The notes under the pieces: generated by a model
Told to the model about the DNA's origin: nothing
The model's input: only the letters and a program-made list of their open reading frames with translations
Database searches by the model: none
Source of the DNA: an uncultured Gammaproteobacteria bacterium
Lineage (GTDB): Bacteria; Patescibacteriota; Microgenomatia; Levybacterales; UBA12049
Assembly: GCA_964490105.1 (NCBI GenBank)
Contig: CAZAZU010000001.1
Coordinates: 155,440 to 219,439, forward strand
Reading direction: 5' to 3'
Length of the DNA stretch: 64,000 nt
In this document: piece by piece, positions 20,293 through 58,171 of the stretch
How the letters are laid out: every line of letters starts with the position of its first letter
How positions within the stretch are numbered: the first letter of the stretch is position 1
Translations under genes and position numbers: made by a program

Positions 20293-20342
20293 CGATCTAA
20301 TTATAGCAGTTCATGCAATTCTGTAGCTTTAGTGAAAGATTG

Positions 20343-20413
20343 CTGCGGGACATGGACTCGAACCATGGTAAACGGATCCAAAGTCCGTTGTCCTACCATT
20401 AGACGATCCCGCA
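20343..20413 (-). tRNA. tRNA-Gln(TTG)
   Basis: U1-A72 acceptor (UGCGGGA/UCCCGCA), anticodon loop CUUUGGA, discriminator G. Confidence 0.8.
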
Positions 20414-20460
20414 ATGGACTTAATTATACCTAAATCAGCCTCATTAAACAAGAAAACTAC

Positions 20461-20838
20461 TTGACTAAAGTATTAAAGGACAATAGTATGAGGTTTATGT
20501 TTTGGTCTGAATTTGCAGATATTCGTAGATGGGTTGGGAATGAACCACCGTCTAATTTACACGCCCGAGGAATAATTGAAGGTAAATTAATAGAGCCTTG
20601 GAATTATCCGATTACTGTTGAATATGATCCAAATGAACCTGCTGAACCTGTGCGCAGAGTTGTTACGAAGCAGGGCTTGGATGGAACAACCTCAAAACAT
20701 GCGTCAACGGGTGAATGTGGTAGGCTTGCGCCAGATGGTAGTACAACTATTATTGATTTTCATGGTGAACCTATGGCTGGAGATCCAGTCAGTCAAAATT
20801 TACGAGCTATTGATCATAGACAAGACCCAGGGCTGTAA
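20461..20838 (+). CDS. hypothetical protein, GC-shifted orphan between tRNA-Gln and tRNA-Leu
   Basis: 125 aa (TTG start; alternative ATG at codon 10 after AAAGGA); Pro/Glu/Gly-rich. Confidence 0.45.
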   Translation: MTKVLKDNSMRFMFWSEFADIRRWVGNEPPSNLHARGIIEGKLIEPWNYPITVEYDPNEPAEPVRRVVTKQGLDGTTSKHASTGECGRLAPDGSTTIIDFHGEPMAGDPVSQNLRAIDHRQDPGL

Positions 20839-20878
20839 GGTTTGTTTAGTGAATCCCCTTTTGTTAGAATATTCCCAA

Positions 20879-20961
20879 GCCGCGGTGGCGAAATGGTAGA
20901 CGCGCAGTGTTCAGAACGCTGTTCCTTCACAGGATTGGAAGTTCGAGTCTTCTCCGCGGTA
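20879..20961 (+). tRNA. tRNA-Leu(CAG)
   Basis: type II tRNA; anticodon loop UUCAGAA; long variable arm; G1-U72. Confidence 0.8.
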
Positions 20962-21120
20962 CTTCGTCATGATTACGACTCGTGTCTTCGTCCCGATTTT
21001 ACCAGGACTTCGACTTTTCGTCGATCATTCCTCTTCAAAATCCTGCGGATTTGAGAAATTGCTTCGCAATTTAGATCGAGGACTTTTTTTCCAGCCTTGG
21101 GAATGATAAAATGACTTTTG

Positions 21121-21205
21121 CGCGGATGTGGTGAAATGGCATACACGCAGCCTTGAGGTGGCTGTGCCCTAAAAAGCGTGGAGGTTCGACTCCTCTCATC
21201 CGCAC
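21121..21205 (+). tRNA. tRNA-Leu(GAG)
   Basis: acceptor GCGGAUG/CAUCCGC; 3-bp D stem; anticodon loop UUGAGGU; long variable arm; encoded CA. Confidence 0.8.
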
Positions 21206-21291
21206 AATTTACCTCTAATTATAATTTGCTTGCTTTGCAAAATTTAATACTGCATAATAACCCCAAGAAGTGCGGATAGGAGGTGATTAAT

Positions 21292-21765
21292 ATGGTTAAA
21301 AAAATATTTTATTCCACATTGGTATTAGCATTTGGGCTATCTATCATGTCAGTTACTCCTAGAAGTGCGTTTGCTACAAATTTTCCATCATGGCATTGGG
21401 AAAAACAAGCAATTAGTTCATATGTAACTATTGATATGCCAGTAGATGATAGATGCGATAATGCATCTCCAGCTTTTAGAGTCACAATTTTTGAAGGTGG
21501 AAATTATACAGGTGCTAGAGCAAGGCTATGTGGATATTGGGACGATTTGTCTCAACTCCCTCAATCTAAAGCAGCAAATGCACCCACTTTTAACAATAGT
21601 GTAAGTTCATATAAAGTTACTTATGTTCCAGGTGGATATGCTATTCAATTTAATTCACTTAAAGACCAGCAAGGAATAGCTTGGGTCAGAGGTGAAGGAA
21701 ATGTAAATGAAGCCGGTGGTGATGTAGACAATATTTTGTCCTCATTAAAAAGGATTAATCCTTAA
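21292..21765 (+). CDS. secreted hypothetical protein
   Basis: SD AGGAGGTGA 7 nt before ATG at 21292 (ORF track starts 21283); signal peptide. Confidence 0.6.
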   Translation: MVKKIFYSTLVLAFGLSIMSVTPRSAFATNFPSWHWEKQAISSYVTIDMPVDDRCDNASPAFRVTIFEGGNYTGARARLCGYWDDLSQLPQSKAANAPTFNNSVSSYKVTYVPGGYAIQFNSLKDQQGIAWVRGEGNVNEAGGDVDNILSSLKRINP

Positions 21766-21858
21766 AAGAGTTTAAAAGAGTGGTGTTTTTAAATTGAATA
21801 ATTTAAGACCCACTCTTTTAATTGATATTAGCTTCAGAATGAATTATAATTGGCTCAT

Positions 21859-21934
21859 TGGACGGTTAGCTCAGCTGGTAGAGCGTCGCATTTACACTGC
21901 GAATGTCGCGAGTTCGATCCTTGCACCGTCCACC
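21859..21934 (+). tRNA. tRNA-Val(TAC)
   Basis: GGACGGU/ACCGUCC acceptor, anticodon loop UUUACAC, encoded CCA. Confidence 0.85.
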
Positions 21935-21935
21935 A

Positions 21936-22008
21936 CGCTGAGGTAGCCAAGGTGGTCAAGGCACCTGTCTGAAGAACAGGCTATATGTGTTCGACTCACA
22001 TCCTCAGC
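21936..22008 (+). tRNA. tRNA-Phe(GAA)
   Basis: acceptor GCUGAGG/CCUCAGC, anticodon loop CUGAAGA, T-loop UUCGACU; starts 2 nt after tRNA-Val. Confidence 0.7.
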
Positions 22009-22056
22009 ACTGAAGAATTGTAAGTTTTTCTGCATAAGCATTTCATCCAAGCGTAA

Positions 22057-22172: not shown

Positions 22173-23027
22173 ATGACAGAAACAAAACAGCTTTTATCAA
22201 TATTTGCAGGAACTACACTGGTAGCTTTTACGGCTTTCCAAACTGCATCTATGACTAGTGTTTCAGCTACTTATGGTGGCGGAGATAACTGTAATCAGGA
22301 AACAACTTATACAGTAGATGAAGACGATGAGTCACATTTGTCATTTTCAGAAACAAGTAACCGAGTAGATGTAGATTTTAATGGTAATAATGATGATAGA
22401 AATCAAGCAATTATTACAGCAGGGTCTGGTTATCAAATAATTACCGTTAGATATGATAATGAAACGAGTAATACTAATTGGATTAATTTTTCAGTTTCAA
22501 ATCCCGTCACGACTATAAATTTAGCTGGAACATCTGATACAACAAGAATCGATAAGGTAGAGGTAAAAGTTAAGAAAGTTTGTGCTACTCCAACTGTCAC
22601 TCCAACTGTTACACCAAGGCCAACTACAGCACCTACTCAAGCGCCAACAGCTATACCGACAGCAGTTCCTACCGTAGTACCAACTACAGCACCTACAGCC
22701 GTTCCAACTGCAGTGCCAACAAGTATCCCATCTATATCACCAGTTCCCACGAATATAATTGAACAGGATGTAAATCCAACTATAACAACTGCTCCAACAG
22801 CTACGCTTACACCAACCGTAACTCCTACTGATACTCCAAGTCAGGGTGGAACATCAAATAATAACAGCTCTTCAAACAATAATTCATCTAATAATGAAGT
22901 AAAAGTTGCTGGAATCAGCGCTTTAGCTTCAACTGGTGGAATAATTGATAGCTTAATGAACTCAGTGTTTGTATCAGGTCTTCTTACCTTTGCGTTTGGT
23001 TTAAAACGTCATGGTAAAAAAAGCTAA
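22173..23027 (+). CDS. cell-surface protein with PT-rich repeats and C-terminal LAxTG-type sorting signal
   Basis: signal peptide; (PTxxPT)n linker; C-term LASTGG + hydrophobic segment + KRHGKKS tail. Confidence 0.7.
   Translation: MTETKQLLSIFAGTTLVAFTAFQTASMTSVSATYGGGDNCNQETTYTVDEDDESHLSFSETSNRVDVDFNGNNDDRNQAIITAGSGYQIITVRYDNETSNTNWINFSVSNPVTTINLAGTSDTTRIDKVEVKVKKVCATPTVTPTVTPRPTTAPTQAPTAIPTAVPTVVPTTAPTAVPTAVPTSIPSISPVPTNIIEQDVNPTITTAPTATLTPTVTPTDTPSQGGTSNNNSSSNNNSSNNEVKVAGISALASTGGIIDSLMNSVFVSGLLTFAFGLKRHGKKS
22590..22760 (+). repeat. in-frame Pro/Thr/Ala/Val tandem coding repeats
   Basis: ACNCCAAC-type codon repeats encoding PTVTPTVTPRPTTAPTQAPTAIPTAVPT... Confidence 0.6.
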
Positions 23028-49321: not shown

Positions 49322-49396
49322 TGGGTGGATGACGGGGATCGGACCCGCGACCTTCTGGACCACAACCAGACGCTCTACCACTGAGCTACAACCACC
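49322..49396 (-). tRNA. tRNA-His(GTG) with G-1, atypical features
   Basis: G-1 + GUGGUUG ... anticodon loop UUGUGGU, C73, encoded CCA; U5-U68 mismatch and T-loop UCCGAUC (C at position 55) are unusual. Confidence 0.7.
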
Positions 49397-49400
49397 ATGT

Positions 49401-49643
49401 CTACTTACTAATTAACCATTTAATATATTTCTTACTTTTATACGATTTTAACTTTTTTTCTCTTAATCTTGCTTCTTCTAAAGTGCTAAATTGCTCTTTG
49501 TAAACTAATCGATATGTTTCTAGAATTCTCGTTGTTCGAGTGTAACCCTTAAGGTGTTGCTTTAGCCTTCTTTCAAGATCGTTAGTAGAACCTATATAAA
49601 ACCTATCTGTTTCGGGATTATGTAATATATACATCCAAAACAT
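49401..49643 (-). CDS. small GIY-YIG nuclease (YhbQ/UPF0213-like)
   Basis: WMYILHNPETDRFYIGSTNDLERRLKQH matches GIY-(10-11)-YIG ... R ... H core; stop 4 nt before tRNA-His 5' end. Confidence 0.75.
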   Translation of the reverse strand: MFWMYILHNPETDRFYIGSTNDLERRLKQHLKGYTRTTRILETYRLVYKEQFSTLEEARLREKKLKSYKSKKYIKWLISK

Positions 49644-51290: not shown

Positions 51291-52217
51291 GTGAGAAAAA
51301 AGAAATCTAAAATTTTTATATTAGGGTTTCTAACCCTTTCTCTTATATTAGTTATGATTTTACTTAATTTTTTAGGTTCCAAGAAGCAATCAATTGAGCT
51401 TGGAGGTAGTACTCGAGAATATTTACTCCACTTGTCTCGTTCTCATGATTCTTCTGAAAATTTACCTCTGGTTATTGCTCTCCATGGTTACACCGATAAC
51501 CCAAGACTAATGGAATTTTATAGTGGATTAAGTAGAAAGTCTGATCGTGAAGGGTTTGTAGTTGTCTATCCATATGGAACGAAAAATGATACTGATAAAA
51601 ATTTATCTTGGAATGGGGGCTCATGCTGCGGGAATGGAGTTTTAAGCAATGTAGAAGACGTCCAGTTTATAAATTCTCTGACCGACGAACTGATTGAGAA
51701 ATACAAAATTGATCCCGAGAGAATTTATATTGCAGGTTTTTCAAATGGCGGACTTTTAGCGCATAGGATCGCCTCGGAAACGCCTGAAAGATATAAGGCA
51801 ATAGCTGTAGTATCAGGGGCAATTGGCGGAAAAGTTTATAAAAAATTACCTCCTTATATTATTCCTAATCCTAAAAAGCCGGTCTCCATGCTTTTAATGC
51901 ATGGAATGAAGGATAGCCGTATTCCTTACAAGGGCGGGCTAAATAATAGTAAAGACGGCGAATTTAAATCATTTAAAGAATCGAGTGAGCTATGGATTCA
52001 AAATAATAACTGCAAAGGTAGCCTAAAGACAGAAAATAAAGTATCAATTAATGAGTCGTTTGAAAATTGCGAGAATGAGACTCGAGTCGAACTATATTCT
52101 GTTAAAGAAAGTGGGCATATGTGGTTTGGTGGAATTGGAGAATTATTTAAAAACCTAAAAGGCGAAAGTATATCTGCGACAAGTATTATCTGGTCATTTT
52201 TTAAAACTGCAAAATAA
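51291..52217 (+). CDS. secreted alpha/beta-hydrolase esterase (PHB-depolymerase/LpqC-like)
   Basis: signal/TM; nucleophile elbow GFSNGG; HG oxyanion-hole motif (LHGYT). Confidence 0.6.
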   Translation: MRKKKSKIFILGFLTLSLILVMILLNFLGSKKQSIELGGSTREYLLHLSRSHDSSENLPLVIALHGYTDNPRLMEFYSGLSRKSDREGFVVVYPYGTKNDTDKNLSWNGGSCCGNGVLSNVEDVQFINSLTDELIEKYKIDPERIYIAGFSNGGLLAHRIASETPERYKAIAVVSGAIGGKVYKKLPPYIIPNPKKPVSMLLMHGMKDSRIPYKGGLNNSKDGEFKSFKESSELWIQNNNCKGSLKTENKVSINESFENCENETRVELYSVKESGHMWFGGIGELFKNLKGESISATSIIWSFFKTAK

Positions 52218-52242: not shown

Positions 52243-52476
52243 ATGTTTCTTCTTACTCTTCCAATGAAAATCTTTGGACTTACTGGCACTCTAGTTTTAG
52301 CAGTAGTTTTATATTGGCTATTTATAGGTACTGGAATGAATTTAGATAGAAGCGGAAAATGCGACTCTGGAGTGGCAGTAAGCGCTAAAAATCCTGTTTC
52401 AGGTGTTCACAGGACTTTTTCTAACGAATGTAAAATTCCAGTGGGCTGGCAAAAAGGTGCAGTTGTAGCTCTTTAA
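52243..52476 (+). CDS. small membrane-anchored hypothetical protein
   Basis: 77 aa, N-terminal TM; stop codon forms first base of direct repeat. Confidence 0.3.
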   Translation: MFLLTLPMKIFGLTGTLVLAVVLYWLFIGTGMNLDRSGKCDSGVAVSAKNPVSGVHRTFSNECKIPVGWQKGAVVAL

Positions 52477-52507
52477 TTCTTTTCTACGGATTGTAGAATC
52501 AAAATAC
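52473..52507 (+). repeat. 35-bp direct repeat copy L (with short hairpin TTCTAC-GGATT-GTAGAA)
   Basis: ttaattcttttctacggattgtagaatcaaaatac; about 29/35 identical to 56365..56399. Confidence 0.6.
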
Positions 52508-52599
52508 CCTCCTAATTCTCTTTTTACTCCATATACTATTTATTATTTAATTAACAATTAACACTGTGTTCTTACATTTCTCTAATCTTTTTAGATGAA

Positions 52600-54780
52600 T
52601 TGCTTAGCTATTATGAAATCATGAATGGTATTTCTGTGGTAATCCCAACATATAATGAAAAAGGGACAATTGGTGATTTGATCAAAAGGATAGTAGCTCC
52701 ACTTGAAAAGGAAGAAATTAGCTATGAATTAATATTTATTGATGATAATTCTACGGATGGAACTCAGCAGGAGATTTTAAAACATGATCGAAAAAAACCC
52801 GTAATTTTTGAACTAAAAAAGGGAGAGCAAGGAAAAGCCTACTCTTTACTGCAGGGATTTAAACTAGCAAAGTATGATGCTATAGCCATGATTGACGCTG
52901 ATCTGCAATATCCGCCCGAAGTAATTCCAAGTATGTATGAAAAACTGGATCAATTTGATATCGTAGTGGCAGAACGAAGAATAAGAAAAACCAGTTTTCT
53001 AAGAAGTTTGTTGAGTCATGGATTTATTAGATTTTTTGGAAAAACACTTCATCACCTAGAAACTGACGTGCAATCGGGCCTAAAGATATTTAAAAAAGAA
53101 ATTTTTGAAAAAGTTGAACTTAACCCCACTCCTTGGACATTCGATTTAGAATTTTTGGTTAGATCTAGAGAGCAAGGTTATAAAATTACAGGACATCCAA
53201 TTACGTTCGAAGAGAGAAAATATGGAAAATCAAAAGTATCCATTTTCAAAACGATTTTTGAGATCGGGATATCTGCAGTAAAGCTTAAGTTTAGCAATCA
53301 AGCAATTGTAACTCAGTCATCGGGTTTAAATAAATTAAATAGTCATCAGTTTTTTCATAAAGGAAATAAATATGTAACATTTAATCAGTTTAGGCATGGC
53401 GAGAGTGCATTTTCCAGTATAAATGCAAGACAAAAAAATATTTTAATAATGATTGCTGTTCTATTTTTAGTTGGATTGGTTATAGATTGGCATTTAACCA
53501 TAATTTTGGGAATTGCTTTCTTAACTATTGTTTACTTAGCTGACATAGTGTTTTATTTATATCTAACAATTAAGAGTTTAGCTACAACTCCTGAAATTCT
53601 ATTTAAACCCGAAGAGCTTCAGAGTATTCCGGAAAACGAATTACCCACATACACAATATTATGCCCGCTATATAAGGAGTGGCATGTTTTACCGCAGTTC
53701 GTGAAAGCTATAAACGATTTAGATTATCCTAAGGAAAAACTTCAAGTGCTACTTTTACTTGAAGAGGATGACGAAGAAAGTATAAATAGAATTAATTCAA
53801 TGAATTTACCTTTTTATTTTCAAAAACTCGTAGTCCCGCATTCTATGCCAAAAACTAAACCAAAAGCATGTAACTATGGATTACATTATGCTACCGGAAA
53901 ATATTCTGTTATTTTTGATGCGGAAGATATACCGGAAAAGGAGCAGTTAAGAAAGGCTGTGGTAGCGTTTAACAAGTTACCTGGATCAACAATTTGTCTT
54001 CAGGCAAAGTTAAATTTCTATAATCCAAAGCAAAATTTACTAACACATTTGTTTACATCGGAATATTCACTTTGGTTTGATTTAATTTTACCAGGGCTTC
54101 AATCAGTTAACGCTCCGATACCTCTTGGTGGAACCTCAAATCATTTTAGAACAGCAGATCTTCGAAGTATGAATGGCTGGGACGCATTCAACGTGACAGA
54201 GGACGCAGATTTAGGAGTTAGGCTAGCATCTAGAGGACTTAAAACAGCAATTATTGATTCTACTACCTATGAGGAAGCAAATAGTCTAACGAGAAATTGG
54301 TTGGGTCAAAGATCAAGATGGATTAAGGGATATATTCAAACATTCTTAGTACATACAAGAAAAAAGAATTCTAATCGCGGGATTAAAGATTCATTATTGT
54401 TTCAATTTGTTATCGGAGGAAAAATATTTCTGTTGTTCATTAATCCCGTTATGTGGATCATAATTCTCTTATATTTTGGATTAAGGCCAATATCCGGACC
54501 TTTTATAGAATCTTTTTTCCCTACTCCGGTGCTGTATATGGGAGTAGCGTCTCTTTTGATAGGTAACTTCGTTTATCTTTATTCGTATATGATTGGCTGT
54601 GCTAAAAGAGAAAAATATGAACTCATTAAATATGCATATCTCGTACCTATATATTGGCTGATGATGAGTTTGGCGGCCTGGGTTGCACTGTATCAGCTTA
54701 TAAGACAGCCTCATTATTGGTTCAAAACTCTTCATGGGCTACATTTAACACCAGAAAATAAATCTGCTTTAGCTTCATAA
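52600..54780 (+). CDS. fused dual family-2 glycosyltransferase (Dpm1-like GT2 + membrane + cellulose-synthase-like GT2)
   Basis: N-term VVIPTYNE ... DDNSTDGT, DAD; central TMs; second module YTILCPLYKEW, DAEDIP, QRSRW (QxxRW) processive motif; C-terminal TMs. Confidence 0.75.
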   Translation: MLSYYEIMNGISVVIPTYNEKGTIGDLIKRIVAPLEKEEISYELIFIDDNSTDGTQQEILKHDRKKPVIFELKKGEQGKAYSLLQGFKLAKYDAIAMIDADLQYPPEVIPSMYEKLDQFDIVVAERRIRKTSFLRSLLSHGFIRFFGKTLHHLETDVQSGLKIFKKEIFEKVELNPTPWTFDLEFLVRSREQGYKITGHPITFEERKYGKSKVSIFKTIFEIGISAVKLKFSNQAIVTQSSGLNKLNSHQFFHKGNKYVTFNQFRHGESAFSSINARQKNILIMIAVLFLVGLVIDWHLTIILGIAFLTIVYLADIVFYLYLTIKSLATTPEILFKPEELQSIPENELPTYTILCPLYKEWHVLPQFVKAINDLDYPKEKLQVLLLLEEDDEESINRINSMNLPFYFQKLVVPHSMPKTKPKACNYGLHYATGKYSVIFDAEDIPEKEQLRKAVVAFNKLPGSTICLQAKLNFYNPKQNLLTHLFTSEYSLWFDLILPGLQSVNAPIPLGGTSNHFRTADLRSMNGWDAFNVTEDADLGVRLASRGLKTAIIDSTTYEEANSLTRNWLGQRSRWIKGYIQTFLVHTRKKNSNRGIKDSLLFQFVIGGKIFLLFINPVMWIIILLYFGLRPISGPFIESFFPTPVLYMGVASLLIGNFVYLYSYMIGCAKREKYELIKYAYLVPIYWLMMSLAAWVALYQLIRQPHYWFKTLHGLHLTPENKSALAS

Positions 54781-54784
54781 GAAC

Positions 54785-56368
54785 ATGATTAATAAATTTC
54801 ATTCTAAGATAAATTATTTGTTGGATAAGCATCCCAATCTAATTATTTTTATTGTTGCTGGTGTTTTAAGTTCTATTTCCACAATTTATTTTTTTACCCA
54901 AGGGCAAATAACTGCTTACGGAGACTCTGAGTCACATTTAAATATTGCAAAAAGGGTTGTAGCCAGTCCTACCCCAGGATTTGCACAGCTTGGAGGAATA
55001 TGGCTCCCGTTGCCGCATTTATTGATGACACCTTTCGTCTCGATCGATCAATTATGGAGAACTGGGCTAGCTGGTTCAATTGTATCCGGTATCGCTTATG
55101 CTATCTCGAGTTTATTTATTTATAAATTAATTTACTTGCTGACTAAAAATAAAGTAGCCTCTGTTTTTGGTTTTTTAGTTTTTGCACTAAATGCAAATAT
55201 TTTATACATGCAATCCACACCGATGACCGAGGTTTTGTTAATTGCTTTCTTCATTCTCTCTATGTACTTTTTTATAAAATTTATATTAAATCATAATGAT
55301 AATATCTCCCTCATTGCCGCAGCTTTTTTTGGTTTTTGTGCAACTTTAACAAGATATGATGGGTGGCTGCTTGTTGGAATAGAAGCTTTAATTATACTGG
55401 CTATCTTTGTAAAAAATAGATTTAGCGTATTCTATCAAGGTCTTTTTTTCTTATTCTCCACACTAGGTTTTGTCGGAGTTTTAATTTGGTTAGCCTGGGA
55501 TTTTTTAATTTTAGGAGACGCCTTGTATTTTACAAATAGTCCTTTTTCCGCTAAATCTCAGCAGCAGGGATGGTTAGCGCGTGGTGAATTGCCAACATAT
55601 CATGATATTGTTCAGTCCTTTTTATATTATTCAGTAACCTCGCTCCATAATATTGGATTTTTAATATCAATATTAGCTGTCCTATCTTTGATTATTTTAA
55701 TTCTGGATAAAAGCATAAGACAGAGAATATTTATAATTCTATTATTATTTGTACCTTTTATTTTTTATGTATTAACTTTGTTTATGGGACAATCAGTTAT
55801 CTTTATTCCTGATTTAACTCCAAAAAGTTTTGAATGGAATTTGTTTAACGTAAGATATGGAATTATGATGGTGCCAGCCGCCGCAATTCTATTAGGATAT
55901 TTGTTTTCAAAAAGATTCCTTGCTCTAAAGTTATTTATAGTAATTGTACTATTCGCTCAATCTTTATTGTTTTTTAGTGGAATCCAAAAAACTATTACCC
56001 TTGAAGACGGAACAGTAGGCTTATCTTCTTCAAAGAAAGTAGATGCAGAGAAATTTTTAACGAAGAATTATAAGGATGGATATGTATTAATGGATGACTA
56101 TGCAAGATCAGTGAGTATTTTAAGAACAACTATACCAATGCAAAATGTTATCTACATAGGAAATAAACCTTATTGGGAAGAGAGCTTAGAGACTCCTGAA
56201 AAATATGCAGAGTGGATTGTTCTTCAGAAGGATGACACTTTATGGAAAAATTTTATGGAAAATAAACGTAAAGAAGAAAGACTGTATAAATATTTTAAGA
56301 AAACATATACTTCTAATGAAATTTTAGTATTTCAGAGGTCAGATGTAGAAGTAAGTAGAGGAAATTAA
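54785..56368 (+). CDS. polytopic membrane protein, putative GT-C type glycosyltransferase
   Basis: about 12 TM; periplasmic-loop acidic motif YGDSESH near TM1 as in GT-C enzymes; co-transcribed with GT2 gene. Confidence 0.45.
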   Translation: MINKFHSKINYLLDKHPNLIIFIVAGVLSSISTIYFFTQGQITAYGDSESHLNIAKRVVASPTPGFAQLGGIWLPLPHLLMTPFVSIDQLWRTGLAGSIVSGIAYAISSLFIYKLIYLLTKNKVASVFGFLVFALNANILYMQSTPMTEVLLIAFFILSMYFFIKFILNHNDNISLIAAAFFGFCATLTRYDGWLLVGIEALIILAIFVKNRFSVFYQGLFFLFSTLGFVGVLIWLAWDFLILGDALYFTNSPFSAKSQQQGWLARGELPTYHDIVQSFLYYSVTSLHNIGFLISILAVLSLIILILDKSIRQRIFIILLLFVPFIFYVLTLFMGQSVIFIPDLTPKSFEWNLFNVRYGIMMVPAAAILLGYLFSKRFLALKLFIVIVLFAQSLLFFSGIQKTITLEDGTVGLSSSKKVDAEKFLTKNYKDGYVLMDDYARSVSILRTTIPMQNVIYIGNKPYWEESLETPEKYAEWIVLQKDDTLWKNFMENKRKEERLYKYFKKTYTSNEILVFQRSDVEVSRGN

Positions 56369-56399
56369 TTTTTTTCTACGGATTGTAAAATCAGTACAC
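56365..56399 (+). repeat. 35-bp direct repeat copy R
   Basis: ttaatttttttctacggattgtaaaatcagtacac. Confidence 0.6.
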
Positions 56400-56922
56400 T
56401 TCCTTCTCTCCAGCTATCTGTATTTCCATCGTCAAGTTTTATATCAGTTCCTTCCAGGTCAACTCCCATTAGTGTTCCAAGTTCTTCTTTATTCATGATT
56501 CTTACCCTTCCTTTCAAGTGTACGCTAACAGTCTCCCCTAGTCCGAGCTCTGTTCCGGTGGTGTCTTTAGGGAGTTTAAAATTATCTCTTCCTACAACAA
56601 TTAGTCTTTTTCCTCCGCTCGAGAGAAATCCTCCGCTCGATCCTACTGTGAATACTCTTTTAGTTACCCAGTCAACAACTCTTGATTCTACTTCAACCTC
56701 TAAGCCATCATAGACTAGCGGATCAGTTACTATATCATTTACTGAAATGATTTCTTTTTTAACCTCGACACCTGGAGTTAGTTTGGCTGTAGTATTCGTA
56801 GTGTTTCTTGTATTTCGATTTGTATTAGTATTTGGGGTGATTCTACTTAAAATGAAAAGTACAACAAAGACTACAATGAACAAGATTACTCCTATCGTAA
56901 TAATTATTTCTCTTTTTCCCAT
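56365..56922 (-). CDS. membrane-anchored hypothetical protein (Asn/Thr-rich linker)
   Basis: N-terminal TM, NTNTNRNTRNTTNTT low-complexity stretch. Confidence 0.4.
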   Translation of the reverse strand: MGKREIIITIGVILFIVVFVVLFILSRITPNTNTNRNTRNTTNTTAKLTPGVEVKKEIISVNDIVTDPLVYDGLEVEVESRVVDWVTKRVFTVGSSGGFLSSGGKRLIVVGRDNFKLPKDTTGTELGLGETVSVHLKGRVRIMNKEELGTLMGVDLEGTDIKLDDGNTDSWREGSVLILQSVEKN

Positions 56923-57001
56923 TTTAAAATTAGAACCTATTCATATAATAATATAACAACCAAAGTTGAGCAAGCGGGTGAATTACAGGAGAGACTGTAG
57001 T

Positions 57002-58171
57002 TTAAATCCTCCTTTTTATAAAAGAAGTTATCTTCTTAACCTTTTCAGTTTTGCTTTTTGCGTTTTCTGGGATTTCAAATTCATCGTGAATTTCCCCAAC
57101 TAAACTTTCAACAAGATCTTCTAGGGTAACAATTCCACTAGTTTTATTATTTTCGTCTTTGACTATTGCCATATGAACTCTTTTTTCCCGTAATAAAATC
57201 ATTGCATCATCAATTTTTTTATTCTCCGAAATTTTTGGAACTTCTCTTATTATTCCCATTTTTGATAATTTTCTTTCTCTGTTTTTAAATAAAAAATTTA
57301 AATACACTTCCCTAAAGCTCTCAAATTTATTTTGAGAAAATAGATTTTTATAAACGTCTTTTACGTGTATAAATCCTAAAATATGATCAATATTGTCTTG
57401 ATATATGGGAAATCTGCTGTGAGGATTTTTTTGAAAAATTTTAATCATGTGTTTTAGCGATGTATCTTTTTCAAAAGCTATGACTTTGCTTCTTGGAATC
57501 ATAACTTTTCTAACCGGAGTATCTCCCAACTTTAGGACGCTATAAACCATTTCAGCCTCCTTTTTTTCAATCGCTCCCTCTTCTGCGCTTTGGGCTAAAA
57601 TCATTTTTATTTCTTCTTCTGAGTGGACTAATTGGTGACCAGTTGGCGCTTTAAATCCAATAGCCTTTAAAACTAAAATTCCAGCGCCGTTTAATACATA
57701 AATAAATGGTTTGAAAATTGTAGTGAAAAGAAGAAGCGGTCTTATAATCCAAAGAGAAGTTTTTTCTGCTTTTTGTAAAGCAATTGACTTGGGTGCAAGC
57801 TCACCTAAAACAATGTGGAGAAAAGTAATAATTGAAAAAGCAATTGAAAAAGCTAGACCATGGCTAGAGATAACTGCTAAATTAGCTGGTAAATATTCAT
57901 CAAGAAATGGTTCAAAAAAATGTGCTAAGAATGGTTCCCCTACCCACCCCAGAGCAAGGCTCGCAAGGGTAATTCCTAATTGAGTTGCAGAAATATAGGT
58001 ATCTAAATGATTTAGTGCATTTTGGACAAGTTTTGCTGATTTATTATCCTTTTTAGCAAGTTCTTCAATTCTGGTTTTCCTAACTCCAACTAATGCAAAT
58101 TCAGAAGCGACAAAGAATCCGTTAAGCAAAACGAGAAAAATTATGAGGGCTAACTGAGGAATGATCTCCAT
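57002..58171 (-). CDS. CNNM/HlyC-CorC family transporter (DUF21 + CBS pair)
   Basis: N-term DUF21 TM domain (GFFVASEFALV), tandem CBS domains. Confidence 0.8.
   Translation of the reverse strand: MEIIPQLALIIFLVLLNGFFVASEFALVGVRKTRIEELAKKDNKSAKLVQNALNHLDTYISATQLGITLASLALGWVGEPFLAHFFEPFLDEYLPANLAVISSHGLAFSIAFSIITFLHIVLGELAPKSIALQKAEKTSLWIIRPLLLFTTIFKPFIYVLNGAGILVLKAIGFKAPTGHQLVHSEEEIKMILAQSAEEGAIEKKEAEMVYSVLKLGDTPVRKVMIPRSKVIAFEKDTSLKHMIKIFQKNPHSRFPIYQDNIDHILGFIHVKDVYKNLFSQNKFESFREVYLNFLFKNRERKLSKMGIIREVPKISENKKIDDAMILLREKRVHMAIVKDENNKTSGIVTLEDLVESLVGEIHDEFEIPENAKSKTEKVKKITSFIKRRI

What the first reader, a model, noticed from the sequence alone, without database searches (positions are those of the whole stretch)
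52473..56399. Glycosyltransferase cassette flanked by 35-bp imperfect direct repeats that begin at stop codons
ttaattcttttctacggattgtagaatcaaaatac (52473) and ttaatttttttctacggattgtaaaatcagtacac (56365) are about 29/35 identical. Each starts with the TAA stop of the preceding gene and contains a TTCTAC-GGATT-GTAGAA hairpin. Together they bracket exactly the two-gene unit, dual GT2 plus putative GT-C. They could be att-like boundaries of an acquired glycan-synthesis cassette, or a duplicated terminator/regulatory element.
Basis: seen in the sequence. Interest (0 to 1): 0.5.

Follow-up and report, generated by a model that had tools for sequence, protein, structure and literature searches.

The report
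Insertion scar flanking acquired glycosyltransferase genes
A two-gene sugar-transferase module was inserted between two tail-to-tail genes of an uncultivated (probably Microgenomates/CPR) bacterium, and the "repeat" is the duplicated last 29 bases of one of those genes, which makes it an ordinary boundary scar of gene acquisition and not a terminator.

Summary
The repeat is real, but it is 29 nt long (52473-52501 and 56365-56393, 27/29 identical), not 35. It occurs only twice in the window, against about 0.02 copies expected by chance.

On the minus strand both copies read ...LILQSVEKN-stop. Copy 2 is the true 3' end of a 185-aa gene ("p185", 56365-56922, minus strand). Copy 1 is an orphan fragment of that same gene end.

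In five related lineages (p185 orthologs 71-92% identical) the ortholog lies directly tail-to-tail with the ortholog of the 77-aa gene ("s77"), with no glycosyltransferase genes between them. So 52502-56364 (3,863 bp: a dual-GT2 gene plus a GT-C-fold gene) is a derived insertion. The closest known relatives of its two genes are only 56-63% identical, while the flanking genes have relatives at 72-92%.

The shared TTAA supplies stop codons to s77, to the GT-C gene and, on the other strand, to p185.

The hairpin is weak, is not conserved in orthologs and is not terminator-like. I found no integrase, terminal inverted repeats, dif-like site, tRNA target or further copies of the core.

Best reading: an attL/attR-like insertion scar. 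The recombination mechanism itself is unresolved. This is a new example of a known kind, of modest interest.

The parts
52473..52501 (.). Repeat copy 1, the orphan copy of the last 29 nt of p185. On the minus strand it reads (G)ILILQSVEKN-stop, preceded by an in-frame stop. Its TTAA provides the TAA stop of the 77-aa gene (52474-52476).
56365..56393 (.). Repeat copy 2, the functional 3' end of p185 (minus strand, stop at 56365-56367). Its TTAA also provides the TAA stop of the GT-C gene (56366-56368).
52502..56364 (+). Inserted segment of 3,863 bp, absent from the syntenic site in five related lineages. Its GC is 0.326, the lowest of all equal-sized segments in the window.
52502..52620 (+). 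AT-rich non-coding leader of the cassette. It has no match in relatives or elsewhere in the window. It contains one weak sigma-70-like site (52551-52578), which is inference only.
52621..54780 (+). Dual GT2 glycosyltransferase of 719 aa from the ATG (the ORF is open from TTG at 52600). The N-terminal domain resembles polyprenyl-phosphate glycosyltransferases (ArnC, PgfS, AglJ, PpgS). The C-terminal domain resembles membrane synthases (CelA/PgaC-like).
54785..56368 (+). GT-C-fold glycosyltransferase of 527 aa. The protein itself has no Pfam hit, but its family has PMT_2 hits. The predicted fold matches ALG12, DPY19, STT3, ArnT, AglB and PMT.
52243..52476 (+). Resident 77-aa membrane protein gene (s77). 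It is the ortholog of the 67-74-aa gene that abuts p185 orthologs in relatives.
52456..52472 (+). The last 17 nt of s77 before the TTAA (tail GAVVAL). Relatives have no counterpart here (their tail is I-S/N-S/P-N). Unexplained: either lineage divergence or a by-product of the rearrangement.
56365..56922 (-). Resident 185-aa gene (p185). It encodes an N-terminal membrane anchor, an Asn/Thr-rich linker and a conserved C-terminal domain ending ...LILQSVEKN. The family is narrow, with 26 homologs found.

Best explanation
The 29-nt direct repeat is the scar of a recent insertion.

Ancestral state (shown). s77 (plus strand) and p185 (minus strand) lay tail-to-tail with overlapping stop codons.

The insertion (shown). 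A 3.86-kb module landed exactly at that junction, and the last 29 nt of p185, including the shared TTAA, ended up on both sides of it. The module carries its own leader, a dual-GT2 gene and a GT-C gene. It probably makes a polyprenyl-phosphate-linked sugar and transfers it to an acceptor outside the membrane. Copy 2 still completes p185 and lends its TAA to the incoming GT-C gene. Copy 1 is a non-coding orphan that keeps the s77 stop codon.

Mechanism (inferred, about 0.35-0.4). One reciprocal crossover between the chromosomal p185 3' end and the same short segment on a circular form of the module. This would be site-specific or short-homology Campbell-type integration, giving attL/attR-like repeats. 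The recombinase would act in trans or have been lost, as in cis-mobilizable elements.

The confidence of 0.8 below refers to the reading 'insertion scar that duplicates the target gene's 3' end', not to this specific mechanism.
For: (1) Minus-strand translation shows both copies encode ...LILQSVEKN-stop. Copy 2 ends an intact 185-aa ORF, and copy 1 follows an in-frame stop. The C-terminal motif is conserved across the family.
(2) Empty sites. In L002-L005, L006/L007, L008, L009 and L016 (p185 orthologs 71-92% identical) the ortholog overlaps the s77 ortholog by 4-8 nt with no GT genes between, and the surrounding synteny (CNNM, esterase, PAP2, DAGK) is otherwise conserved.
(3) Junction alignment. 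The left flank of copy 1 and the right flank of copy 2 match the empty sites, and only the core matches both junctions.
(4) Both copies share a lineage-specific +1 T, giving EKN-stop where relatives have ER(I/T)N-stop. They are 93% identical to each other, while the gene is only 82% identical to its nearest relative. The duplication is therefore recent and copies this lineage's own sequence.
(5) The cassette genes have no close relatives: GT-C at most 63% and GT2 at most 56%, against 72-92% for the flanking genes. The same gene pair occurs in unrelated contexts in other Microgenomates.
(6) The architecture matches documented integrative islands bounded by the target gene and a short direct repeat of its 3' end, many of which lack an integration module (PMC3146451; CIME definition in PMC5704250).
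Against: No integrase or recombinase lies in the insert or within about 10 kb, judged from precomputed Pfam on the called genes. No other element occupies this site in any relative. No extra core copies turned up in the window, the related loci, viral contigs or the rows returned by the metagenome scan. An element-borne core would have to match a lineage-specific variant of a gene that exists only in a narrow clade, which is awkward for a module whose genes look foreign. The 17 nt just left of copy 1 have no counterpart in relatives, and a clean site-specific event does not predict that. The compositional difference is small, and GC3 is like that of the neighbours.
Confidence: 0.8

Rival explanations
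1. Homology-facilitated illegitimate recombination. Linear DNA from a closely related donor, in which the cassette already lay next to p185, recombined homologously within p185 and joined illegitimately 29 nt inside the recipient's p185 3' end. The recipient's last 29 nt were left behind as the orphan.
For: This needs no recombinase, which fits. Both differences between the copies are synonymous in the p185 frame. They are derived in the functional copy when polarised by relatives (note). That pattern is expected if the two copies were two functional alleles; if copy 1 were neutral, the chance of both changes falling in copy 2 is roughly (6/31)^2, about 0.04. The mechanism is established in naturally transformable bacteria (PMC3240628).
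Against: The 3' part of p185 is not more divergent from relatives than the rest of the gene: window-specific changes are 20, 16 and 15 per third. The donor would have to share the lineage-specific +1 T, so it would be nearly conspecific, and how the cassette first reached p185 in that donor would still need explaining. No such donor arrangement was found.
Confidence: 0.2
2. Target duplication made during the insertion itself. Nicks staggered about 29 nt apart, or a replication template switch, captured a foreign fragment, and fill-in synthesis duplicated the target, like a very long target-site duplication.
For: Both copies derive from this lineage's own sequence, as shown by the shared +1 T. 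The cassette need not have carried any host-specific sequence. Because the resident genes overlap, only insertions that duplicate the TTAA region leave both intact, so selection would filter for such events (inference). The unexplained 17-nt tail next to copy 1 could be filler DNA.
Against: From my own knowledge, no known transposase or repair pathway routinely gives a 29-bp duplication; typical target-site duplications are 2-15 bp. There are no terminal inverted repeats and no transposase. The left edge of the duplication falls exactly on the stop codon, which would be a coincidence under random nicking.
Confidence: 0.2
3. The repeat is a functional RNA or DNA element, such as a bidirectional terminator, a 3' UTR hairpin or an operator, that was duplicated or retained because s77 needs it downstream of its stop codon.
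For: A perfect 6-bp stem is present in copy 1. Copy 1 shows no derived substitutions, whereas copy 2 has two (note). This is only a weak hint of constraint.
Against: The stem is AU-rich, about -5 kcal/mol with z -0.7, and 44 of 200 shuffles fold at least as well. There is no U-tract and the terminator scan does not call it. RNAalifold finds no conserved pairs across eight orthologous sites. There is no Rfam hit. Only two copies exist. Copy 2 is fully explained as conserved coding sequence.
Confidence: 0.07
4. The cassette is ancestral, and the relatives lost it by deletion between the two repeat copies.
For: Recombination between 29-nt direct repeats would regenerate exactly the observed empty site.
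Against: This needs several independent losses across five lineages spanning 71-92% identity. The two copies share a derived indel that all relatives lack. The cassette genes have no orthologs above 63% although the flanking genes do.
Confidence: 0.04

Closest known systems
Integrative genomic islands bounded by the target gene and a short direct repeat of its 3' end, for example the Dehalococcoides ssrA islands (20-bp repeat; PMC3146451)
   Same: The cargo lies between an intact target gene and an orphan direct repeat of that gene's 3' end. Synteny is interrupted relative to related strains. GC is lower than the surroundings. An element gene reads into the repeat for its stop codon. About half of those islands (15 of 31) have no integration module.
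   Different: The target here is a protein-coding gene of a narrow family, not a tmRNA or tRNA gene. There is a single occupant, with no tandem arrays, no family of related islands and no cognate integrase anywhere in the data examined. The insert is only 3.9 kb with two genes.
Cis-mobilizable elements (CIMEs): decayed ICE/IME that keep attL and attR but have lost their integration and transfer genes (PMC5704250)
   Same: The insert is flanked by att-like direct repeats, encodes no recombinase and carries only cargo genes.
   Different: A CIME is defined relative to a related functional ICE or IME that uses the same att site, and none was found. There are no remnants of integration or transfer genes. 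Mobility is untested.
Homology-facilitated illegitimate recombination products of natural transformation (PMC3240628)
   Same: Foreign DNA is inserted next to a homologous anchor gene without any mobile-element machinery.
   Different: From my own knowledge, such products usually delete recipient DNA, not leave a neat orphan repeat. No donor-like patch is seen in the anchor gene.
Polyprenyl-phosphate-sugar GT2 plus GT-C pairs that modify surface glycoconjugates or proteins (ArnC/ArnT, GtrB/GtrC of serotype-converting phages, PgfS/PgfM). This comparison rests on my own knowledge.
   Same: A GT2 domain resembling ArnC, PgfS, AglJ or PpgS is encoded next to a GT-C-fold enzyme. Such modules are typically accessory and horizontally acquired.
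   Different: The GT2 is fused to a second, synthase-like GT2 domain. There is no GtrA/ArnEF-type flippase gene in the cassette. The scores are far below the equivalog cut-offs of those families. The substrate is unknown.

Membership tests
att-flanked integrative island / CIME | Direct repeats at both ends that correspond to the 3' end of the target gene | tested here: met
   The 29-nt repeat, 27/29 identical, equals the last 9 codons plus stop of p185.
att-flanked integrative island / CIME | An intact empty site in related genomes (presence/absence polymorphism) | tested here: met
   Five lineages have s77 and p185 orthologs directly tail-to-tail.
att-flanked integrative island / CIME | An integrase in the element, or for a CIME a related integrase-bearing element using the same att site | tested here: not met
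   No recombinase Pfam family appears among the called genes within about 10 kb. No other occupant of the site was seen in relatives. No core copies were found in viral contigs or in the returned metagenome rows. The rest of the genome could not be searched.
att-flanked integrative island / CIME | Excision to a circular form, or a restored empty site within the population | not testable with these tools
   This needs the raw reads of the source sample.
Xer/dif-exploiting elements (IMEX, pdif modules) | Flanking ~28-bp dif-like sites (11-6-11 dyad); for IMEX, a location at the chromosomal dif/terminus | tested here: not met
   Similarity to the E. coli and B. subtilis dif sites (recalled from memory) is at shuffle level. 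The dyad symmetry is weak and is not in the same register in the two copies. There is no terminus-type skew switch.
Transposon / insertion sequence | Terminal inverted repeats, a transposase and a short (2-15 bp) target-site duplication | tested here: not met
   No inverted repeats pair the two ends of the insert. There is no transposase gene. The duplication is 29 bp.
Integron gene cassette | An attC imperfect palindrome at the cassette's 3' end, and IntI/attI nearby | tested here: not met
   The repeat folds no better than shuffled sequence. It is conserved coding sequence of p185. No integrase lies nearby.
Intrinsic (Rho-independent) terminator | A GC-rich stem-loop followed by a U-tract, conserved at orthologous sites | tested here: not met
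   Not called by the scan. Energy about -5 kcal/mol, z -0.7. Zero conserved pairs.
GT-C glycosyltransferase superfamily (527-aa protein) | The multi-pass GT-C membrane fold shared with polyprenyl-phosphate-sugar-dependent transferases | tested here: met
   The AF2 model has pLDDT 80.5 and pTM 0.84. All top Foldseek PDB hits are GT-C enzymes at probability 1.00, TM 0.5-0.58. PMT_2 is hit by 4 of 14 family members, but not by the window protein itself.
GT2 glycosyltransferase (719/726-aa protein) | GT-A-type GT2 catalytic domain(s) | tested here: met
   PF00535 is hit in two stretches (E 1e-37). PF13641 and PF13632 cover residues 349-628.
Three-component periplasmic glycosylation system (GtrA/B/C or ArnC/ArnT type) | A polyprenyl-P glycosyltransferase, a flippase and a GT-C transferase | tested here: inconclusive
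   The GT2 N-domain resembles ArnC, PgfS, AglJ and PpgS, but far below their cut-offs. The GT-C is present. No flippase gene is in the cassette.

The most novel reading that the evidence does not exclude
The 29-nt core is a working recombination site, and the recombinase-less two-gene glycosylation module moves in and out of the p185 3' end by a recombinase supplied in trans. That would make it a minimal cis-mobilizable cassette in a CPR bacterium, a group whose mobile elements are poorly known. The lack of decay in the orphan copy would then reflect selection on that site. The same data also do not exclude copy 1 being retained as a functional 3' element for s77.
Probability: 0.15. Interest if true: 0.55.

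Novelty: new member of a known kind. Interest (0 to 1): 0.3.

Why it matters
This is a clean case, resolved to the base pair, of how an accessory cell-surface glycosylation module entered a reduced CPR-type genome. It landed in the overlap of two convergent genes, and a 29-nt duplication kept all three reading frames intact. Such scars help separate recently acquired genes from inherited ones in uncultivated lineages. Surface glycans are also plausible determinants of host attachment or phage sensitivity in these bacteria. It does not reveal a new kind of element or a new mechanism.

Tried and rejected
- **Terminator or regulatory hairpin.** Rejected on folding energies, the terminator scan, RNAalifold across eight orthologous sites and Rfam.
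- **Longer duplication (35 nt or more, or extending left of TTAA).** Not significant. The left-flank similarity comes from the GT-C family's own YTSxxILIFKR motif.
- **Phage vehicle.** No GT-C relatives in IMG/VR. All 95 core-pattern hits there are chance, at most 22/29 with 16 positions forced by the pattern.
- **Extra core copies in metagenome contigs.** The best hits (L168/L137, 26/29) are internal to an unrelated ORF.
- **Core-like sequence beside cassette homologs in other genomes (L010-L015).** None found.
- **Xer/dif site or replication terminus.** No support.
- **Transposon ends.** No terminal inverted repeats.
- **tRNA or tmRNA target.** The nearest tRNA is His at 49323-49395, about 3 kb away.
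- **Donor-derived patch at the p185 3' end.** Not seen.
- **Template for the 17-nt s77 tail.** No other copy in the window.
- **Flanking repeats at other lineage-specific insertions in relatives.** None of comparable quality.
- **L017 and L018 as empty sites.** Dropped. Their downstream ORFs are not s77 homologs.
- **Sequence-profile search of the GT-C family against PDB.** No hits. The fold search was needed instead.


Full report
**Observation**

The two quoted 35-mers are present at 52473 and 56365. A gapped local alignment of the two neighbourhoods recovers a 29-nt core, 52473-52501 against 56365-56393, with 27/29 identities. It scores 48, where the best of 500 shuffles scores 32. To the right of the core the flanks are no more alike than shuffled sequence (p=0.89). 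To the left the similarity is marginal (p=0.046). A 21-nt core pattern with up to three mismatches occurs only at these two places in the 64-kb window, where 0.02 are expected, and a 29-mer scan agrees. So the repeat is real, but it is 29 nt long, not 35.

**What the repeat is**

Read on the minus strand, both copies encode the same peptide end. Copy 2 gives ...REGSVLILQSVEKN-stop, which is the true C-terminus of a 185-aa ORF (56365-56922, called p185 here). Copy 1 gives stop-EGILILQSVEKN-stop, an orphan fragment with no ORF attached.

p185 has 26 detectable homologs, and the motif ...(L/I)L.SVEK... is conserved at their C-termini.

Each copy begins with TTAA. At site 1 the TAA ends the 77-aa gene s77 (52243-52476). 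At site 2 it ends the 527-aa gene. On the other strand the TTA is the p185 stop.

**Surroundings**

The gene order is:
- esterase (51291-52217, +)
- s77 (+)
- copy 1
- a 119-nt AT-rich leader
- dual-GT2 gene (52621-54780, +)
- 527-aa gene (54785-56368, +)
- copy 2, which is the end of p185 (-)
- CNNM/CBS gene (57002-58171, -)

The 527-aa protein has no Pfam hit itself, but it belongs to a large family in Microgenomates-type bacteria (names such as Levybacteria and Roizmanbacteria; "GT39" in some sources). PMT_2 is hit by 4 of 14 aligned family members. An AlphaFold model (pLDDT 80.5, pTM 0.84) matches only GT-C-fold transferases in the PDB: ALG12, DPY19, STT3/AglB, ArnT, AftA and PMT, all at probability 1.00.

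The first GT2 domain resembles polyprenyl-phosphate glycosyltransferases (ArnC, PgfS, AglJ, PpgS). The second resembles membrane synthases (CelA, PgaC). All of these scores are far below the equivalog cut-offs. My inference is that the pair makes a lipid-linked sugar and transfers it to an acceptor outside the membrane.

**Comparison with relatives**

Contigs encoding p185 orthologs were fetched for five lineages: P0002 (92%, L016), P0003 (89%, L008), P0004 (85%, L002-L005), P0008 (84%, L006/L007) and P0010 (71%, L009).

In every one the ortholog lies tail-to-tail with a 67-74-aa gene, overlapping it by 4-8 nt. That small gene is the ortholog of s77, with 47-55 identical residues over 64-71 aligned. 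The surrounding genes (CNNM, esterase, PAP2, DAGK) are syntenic with the window at 72-91% identity. No glycosyltransferase genes lie between the two.

Nucleotide alignments of these empty sites with both window junctions show three things:
- The left flank of copy 1 matches the empty sites.
- The right flank of copy 2 matches the empty sites.
- Only the 29-nt core matches both junctions.

So 52502-56364 (3,863 bp) is an insertion into the junction, and the core is the duplicated target.

**Polarity and age**

Both window copies carry an extra T (TTCTTTTC against TTCTTTC). This makes p185 end EKN-stop, where the relatives end ER(I/T)N-stop or similar. The copies are 93% identical to each other, while p185 as a whole is only 82% identical in nucleotides to its nearest relative. 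The duplication therefore copied this lineage's own sequence, after it split from all sampled relatives. Repeated loss of an ancestral cassette is unparsimonious.

The cassette genes have no close relatives: GT-C at most 63% and GT2 at most 56%. The same gene pair is found in unrelated contexts in other Microgenomates.

The insert has the lowest GC of any equal-sized segment of the window (0.326, against 0.367 +/- 0.018). Its GC3 is like that of its neighbours, so composition is only weak evidence.

The arrangement is present in three independent assemblies. The ENA contig name (k139) suggests a k-mer far longer than a 29-nt repeat. Both points argue against a misassembly (the k-mer point is inference).

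**Terminator or regulatory reading**

- The stem TTCTAC/GTAGAA is perfect only in copy 1.
- The folds are about -5 to -9 kcal/mol, with z-scores of -0.7 to -1.3.
- There is no U-tract, and the terminator scan does not call either site.
- RNAalifold finds no conserved pair across eight orthologous sites.
- Rfam has no match.

Copy 2 is fully explained as conserved coding sequence.

**Mechanism**

The architecture is that of an integrative island: an intact target gene at one end and an orphan direct repeat of its 3' end at the other. Documented analogues are the Dehalococcoides ssrA islands. [quoted passage not shown] Another analogue is the cis-mobilizable element, which keeps attL and attR but has no integrase (PMC5704250).

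I therefore rank a single reciprocal crossover between a circular form of the module and the p185 3' end first, at about 0.35-0.4. Several membership features fail:
- No recombinase within about 10 kb.
- No other occupant of the site in relatives.
- No further core copies in the window, related loci, viral contigs or the returned metagenome rows.
- No tRNA or tmRNA target.
- No dif-like structure or terminus.
- No terminal inverted repeats.

Two rivals remain open. The first is one-sided homologous recombination from a near-conspecific donor (HFIR; PMC3240628). Against it, p185 shows no donor-like patch. The second is a long target duplication made during the insertion. Against it, no known pathway makes 29-bp duplications.

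Two small observations do not yet discriminate between these:
- Both differences between the copies are synonymous in the p185 frame. They appear derived in the functional copy. If the orphan were neutral, the chance of both falling there is roughly 0.04. This hints either at constraint on copy 1 or at two functional alleles.
- The 17 nt left of copy 1 (the s77 tail) have no counterpart in relatives and no template in the window.

**Verdict**

The "acquired cassette boundary" reading is supported and the terminator reading is not. An att-type mechanism is plausible but unproven. This is a new example of a known kind of feature and is of modest interest.

Noticed in passing
window 56923-57001; compare L003 8694-8936, L006 1915-2157, L008 3207-3449, L016 39-281: All relatives examined carry an 80-aa gene (Transgly_assoc in some) on the opposite strand between the CNNM gene and the p185 ortholog. 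The window has only a 79-nt spacer there. This is a second lineage-specific difference right next to the cassette, probably a deletion.
   Followed up: partly
window 56365-56922 (minus strand), residues ~28-50 of p185: p185 is a membrane-anchored protein with an Asn/Thr-rich linker (TPNTNTNRNTRNTTNTTAK). That is the kind of segment glycosylated by PMT-like GT-C enzymes, and it now sits directly beside a newly acquired GT-C gene. A substrate relationship is speculation.
   Followed up: no
window 52456-52472: The C-terminal tail of s77 (GAVVAL) and its 17 nt have no counterpart in the orthologs (tail I-S/N-S/P-N) and no other copy in the window. This could be relaxed constraint once the overlap with p185 was lost, or filler DNA from the rearrangement.
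   Followed up: partly
window 49401-49643 (minus strand), next to tRNA-His at 49323-49395; L006 5747-6217: A free-standing 80-aa GIY-YIG gene lies next to tRNA-His about 3 kb from the cassette. At the equivalent place relative L006 has an HNH_3 endonuclease gene plus extra small genes. These homing-endonuclease-like genes suggest the neighbourhood is a small hotspot of gene flux.
   Followed up: no
L002 5593-7279 and L003 3465-5142 (response regulator plus histidine kinase); L003 6102-7423: Relatives of the P0004 lineage carry a two-component system and two further genes between the NAGPA-side genes and CNNM. The window lacks them. No flanking direct repeats of comparable quality were found at these indels.
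   Followed up: partly
window 22620-22817: A run of 12-nt-periodic direct repeats (CCAACTACAGCACCTAC...) that would encode a Pro/Thr/Ala-rich low-complexity stretch. It lies just downstream of a tRNA cluster (20342-22010).
   Followed up: no
window 12322-49395: There are thirteen tRNA genes in the window, including four tRNA-Leu. Three of these (20879, 21122, 39913) account for the repeat finder family D2.
   Followed up: yes
L016 1222-1455 and L017 7811-8035: Small ORFs called next to the p185 orthologs in these contigs (77 aa and 74 aa) are not homologs of s77 and may be spurious calls. L017 should not be counted as an empty site.
   Followed up: yes
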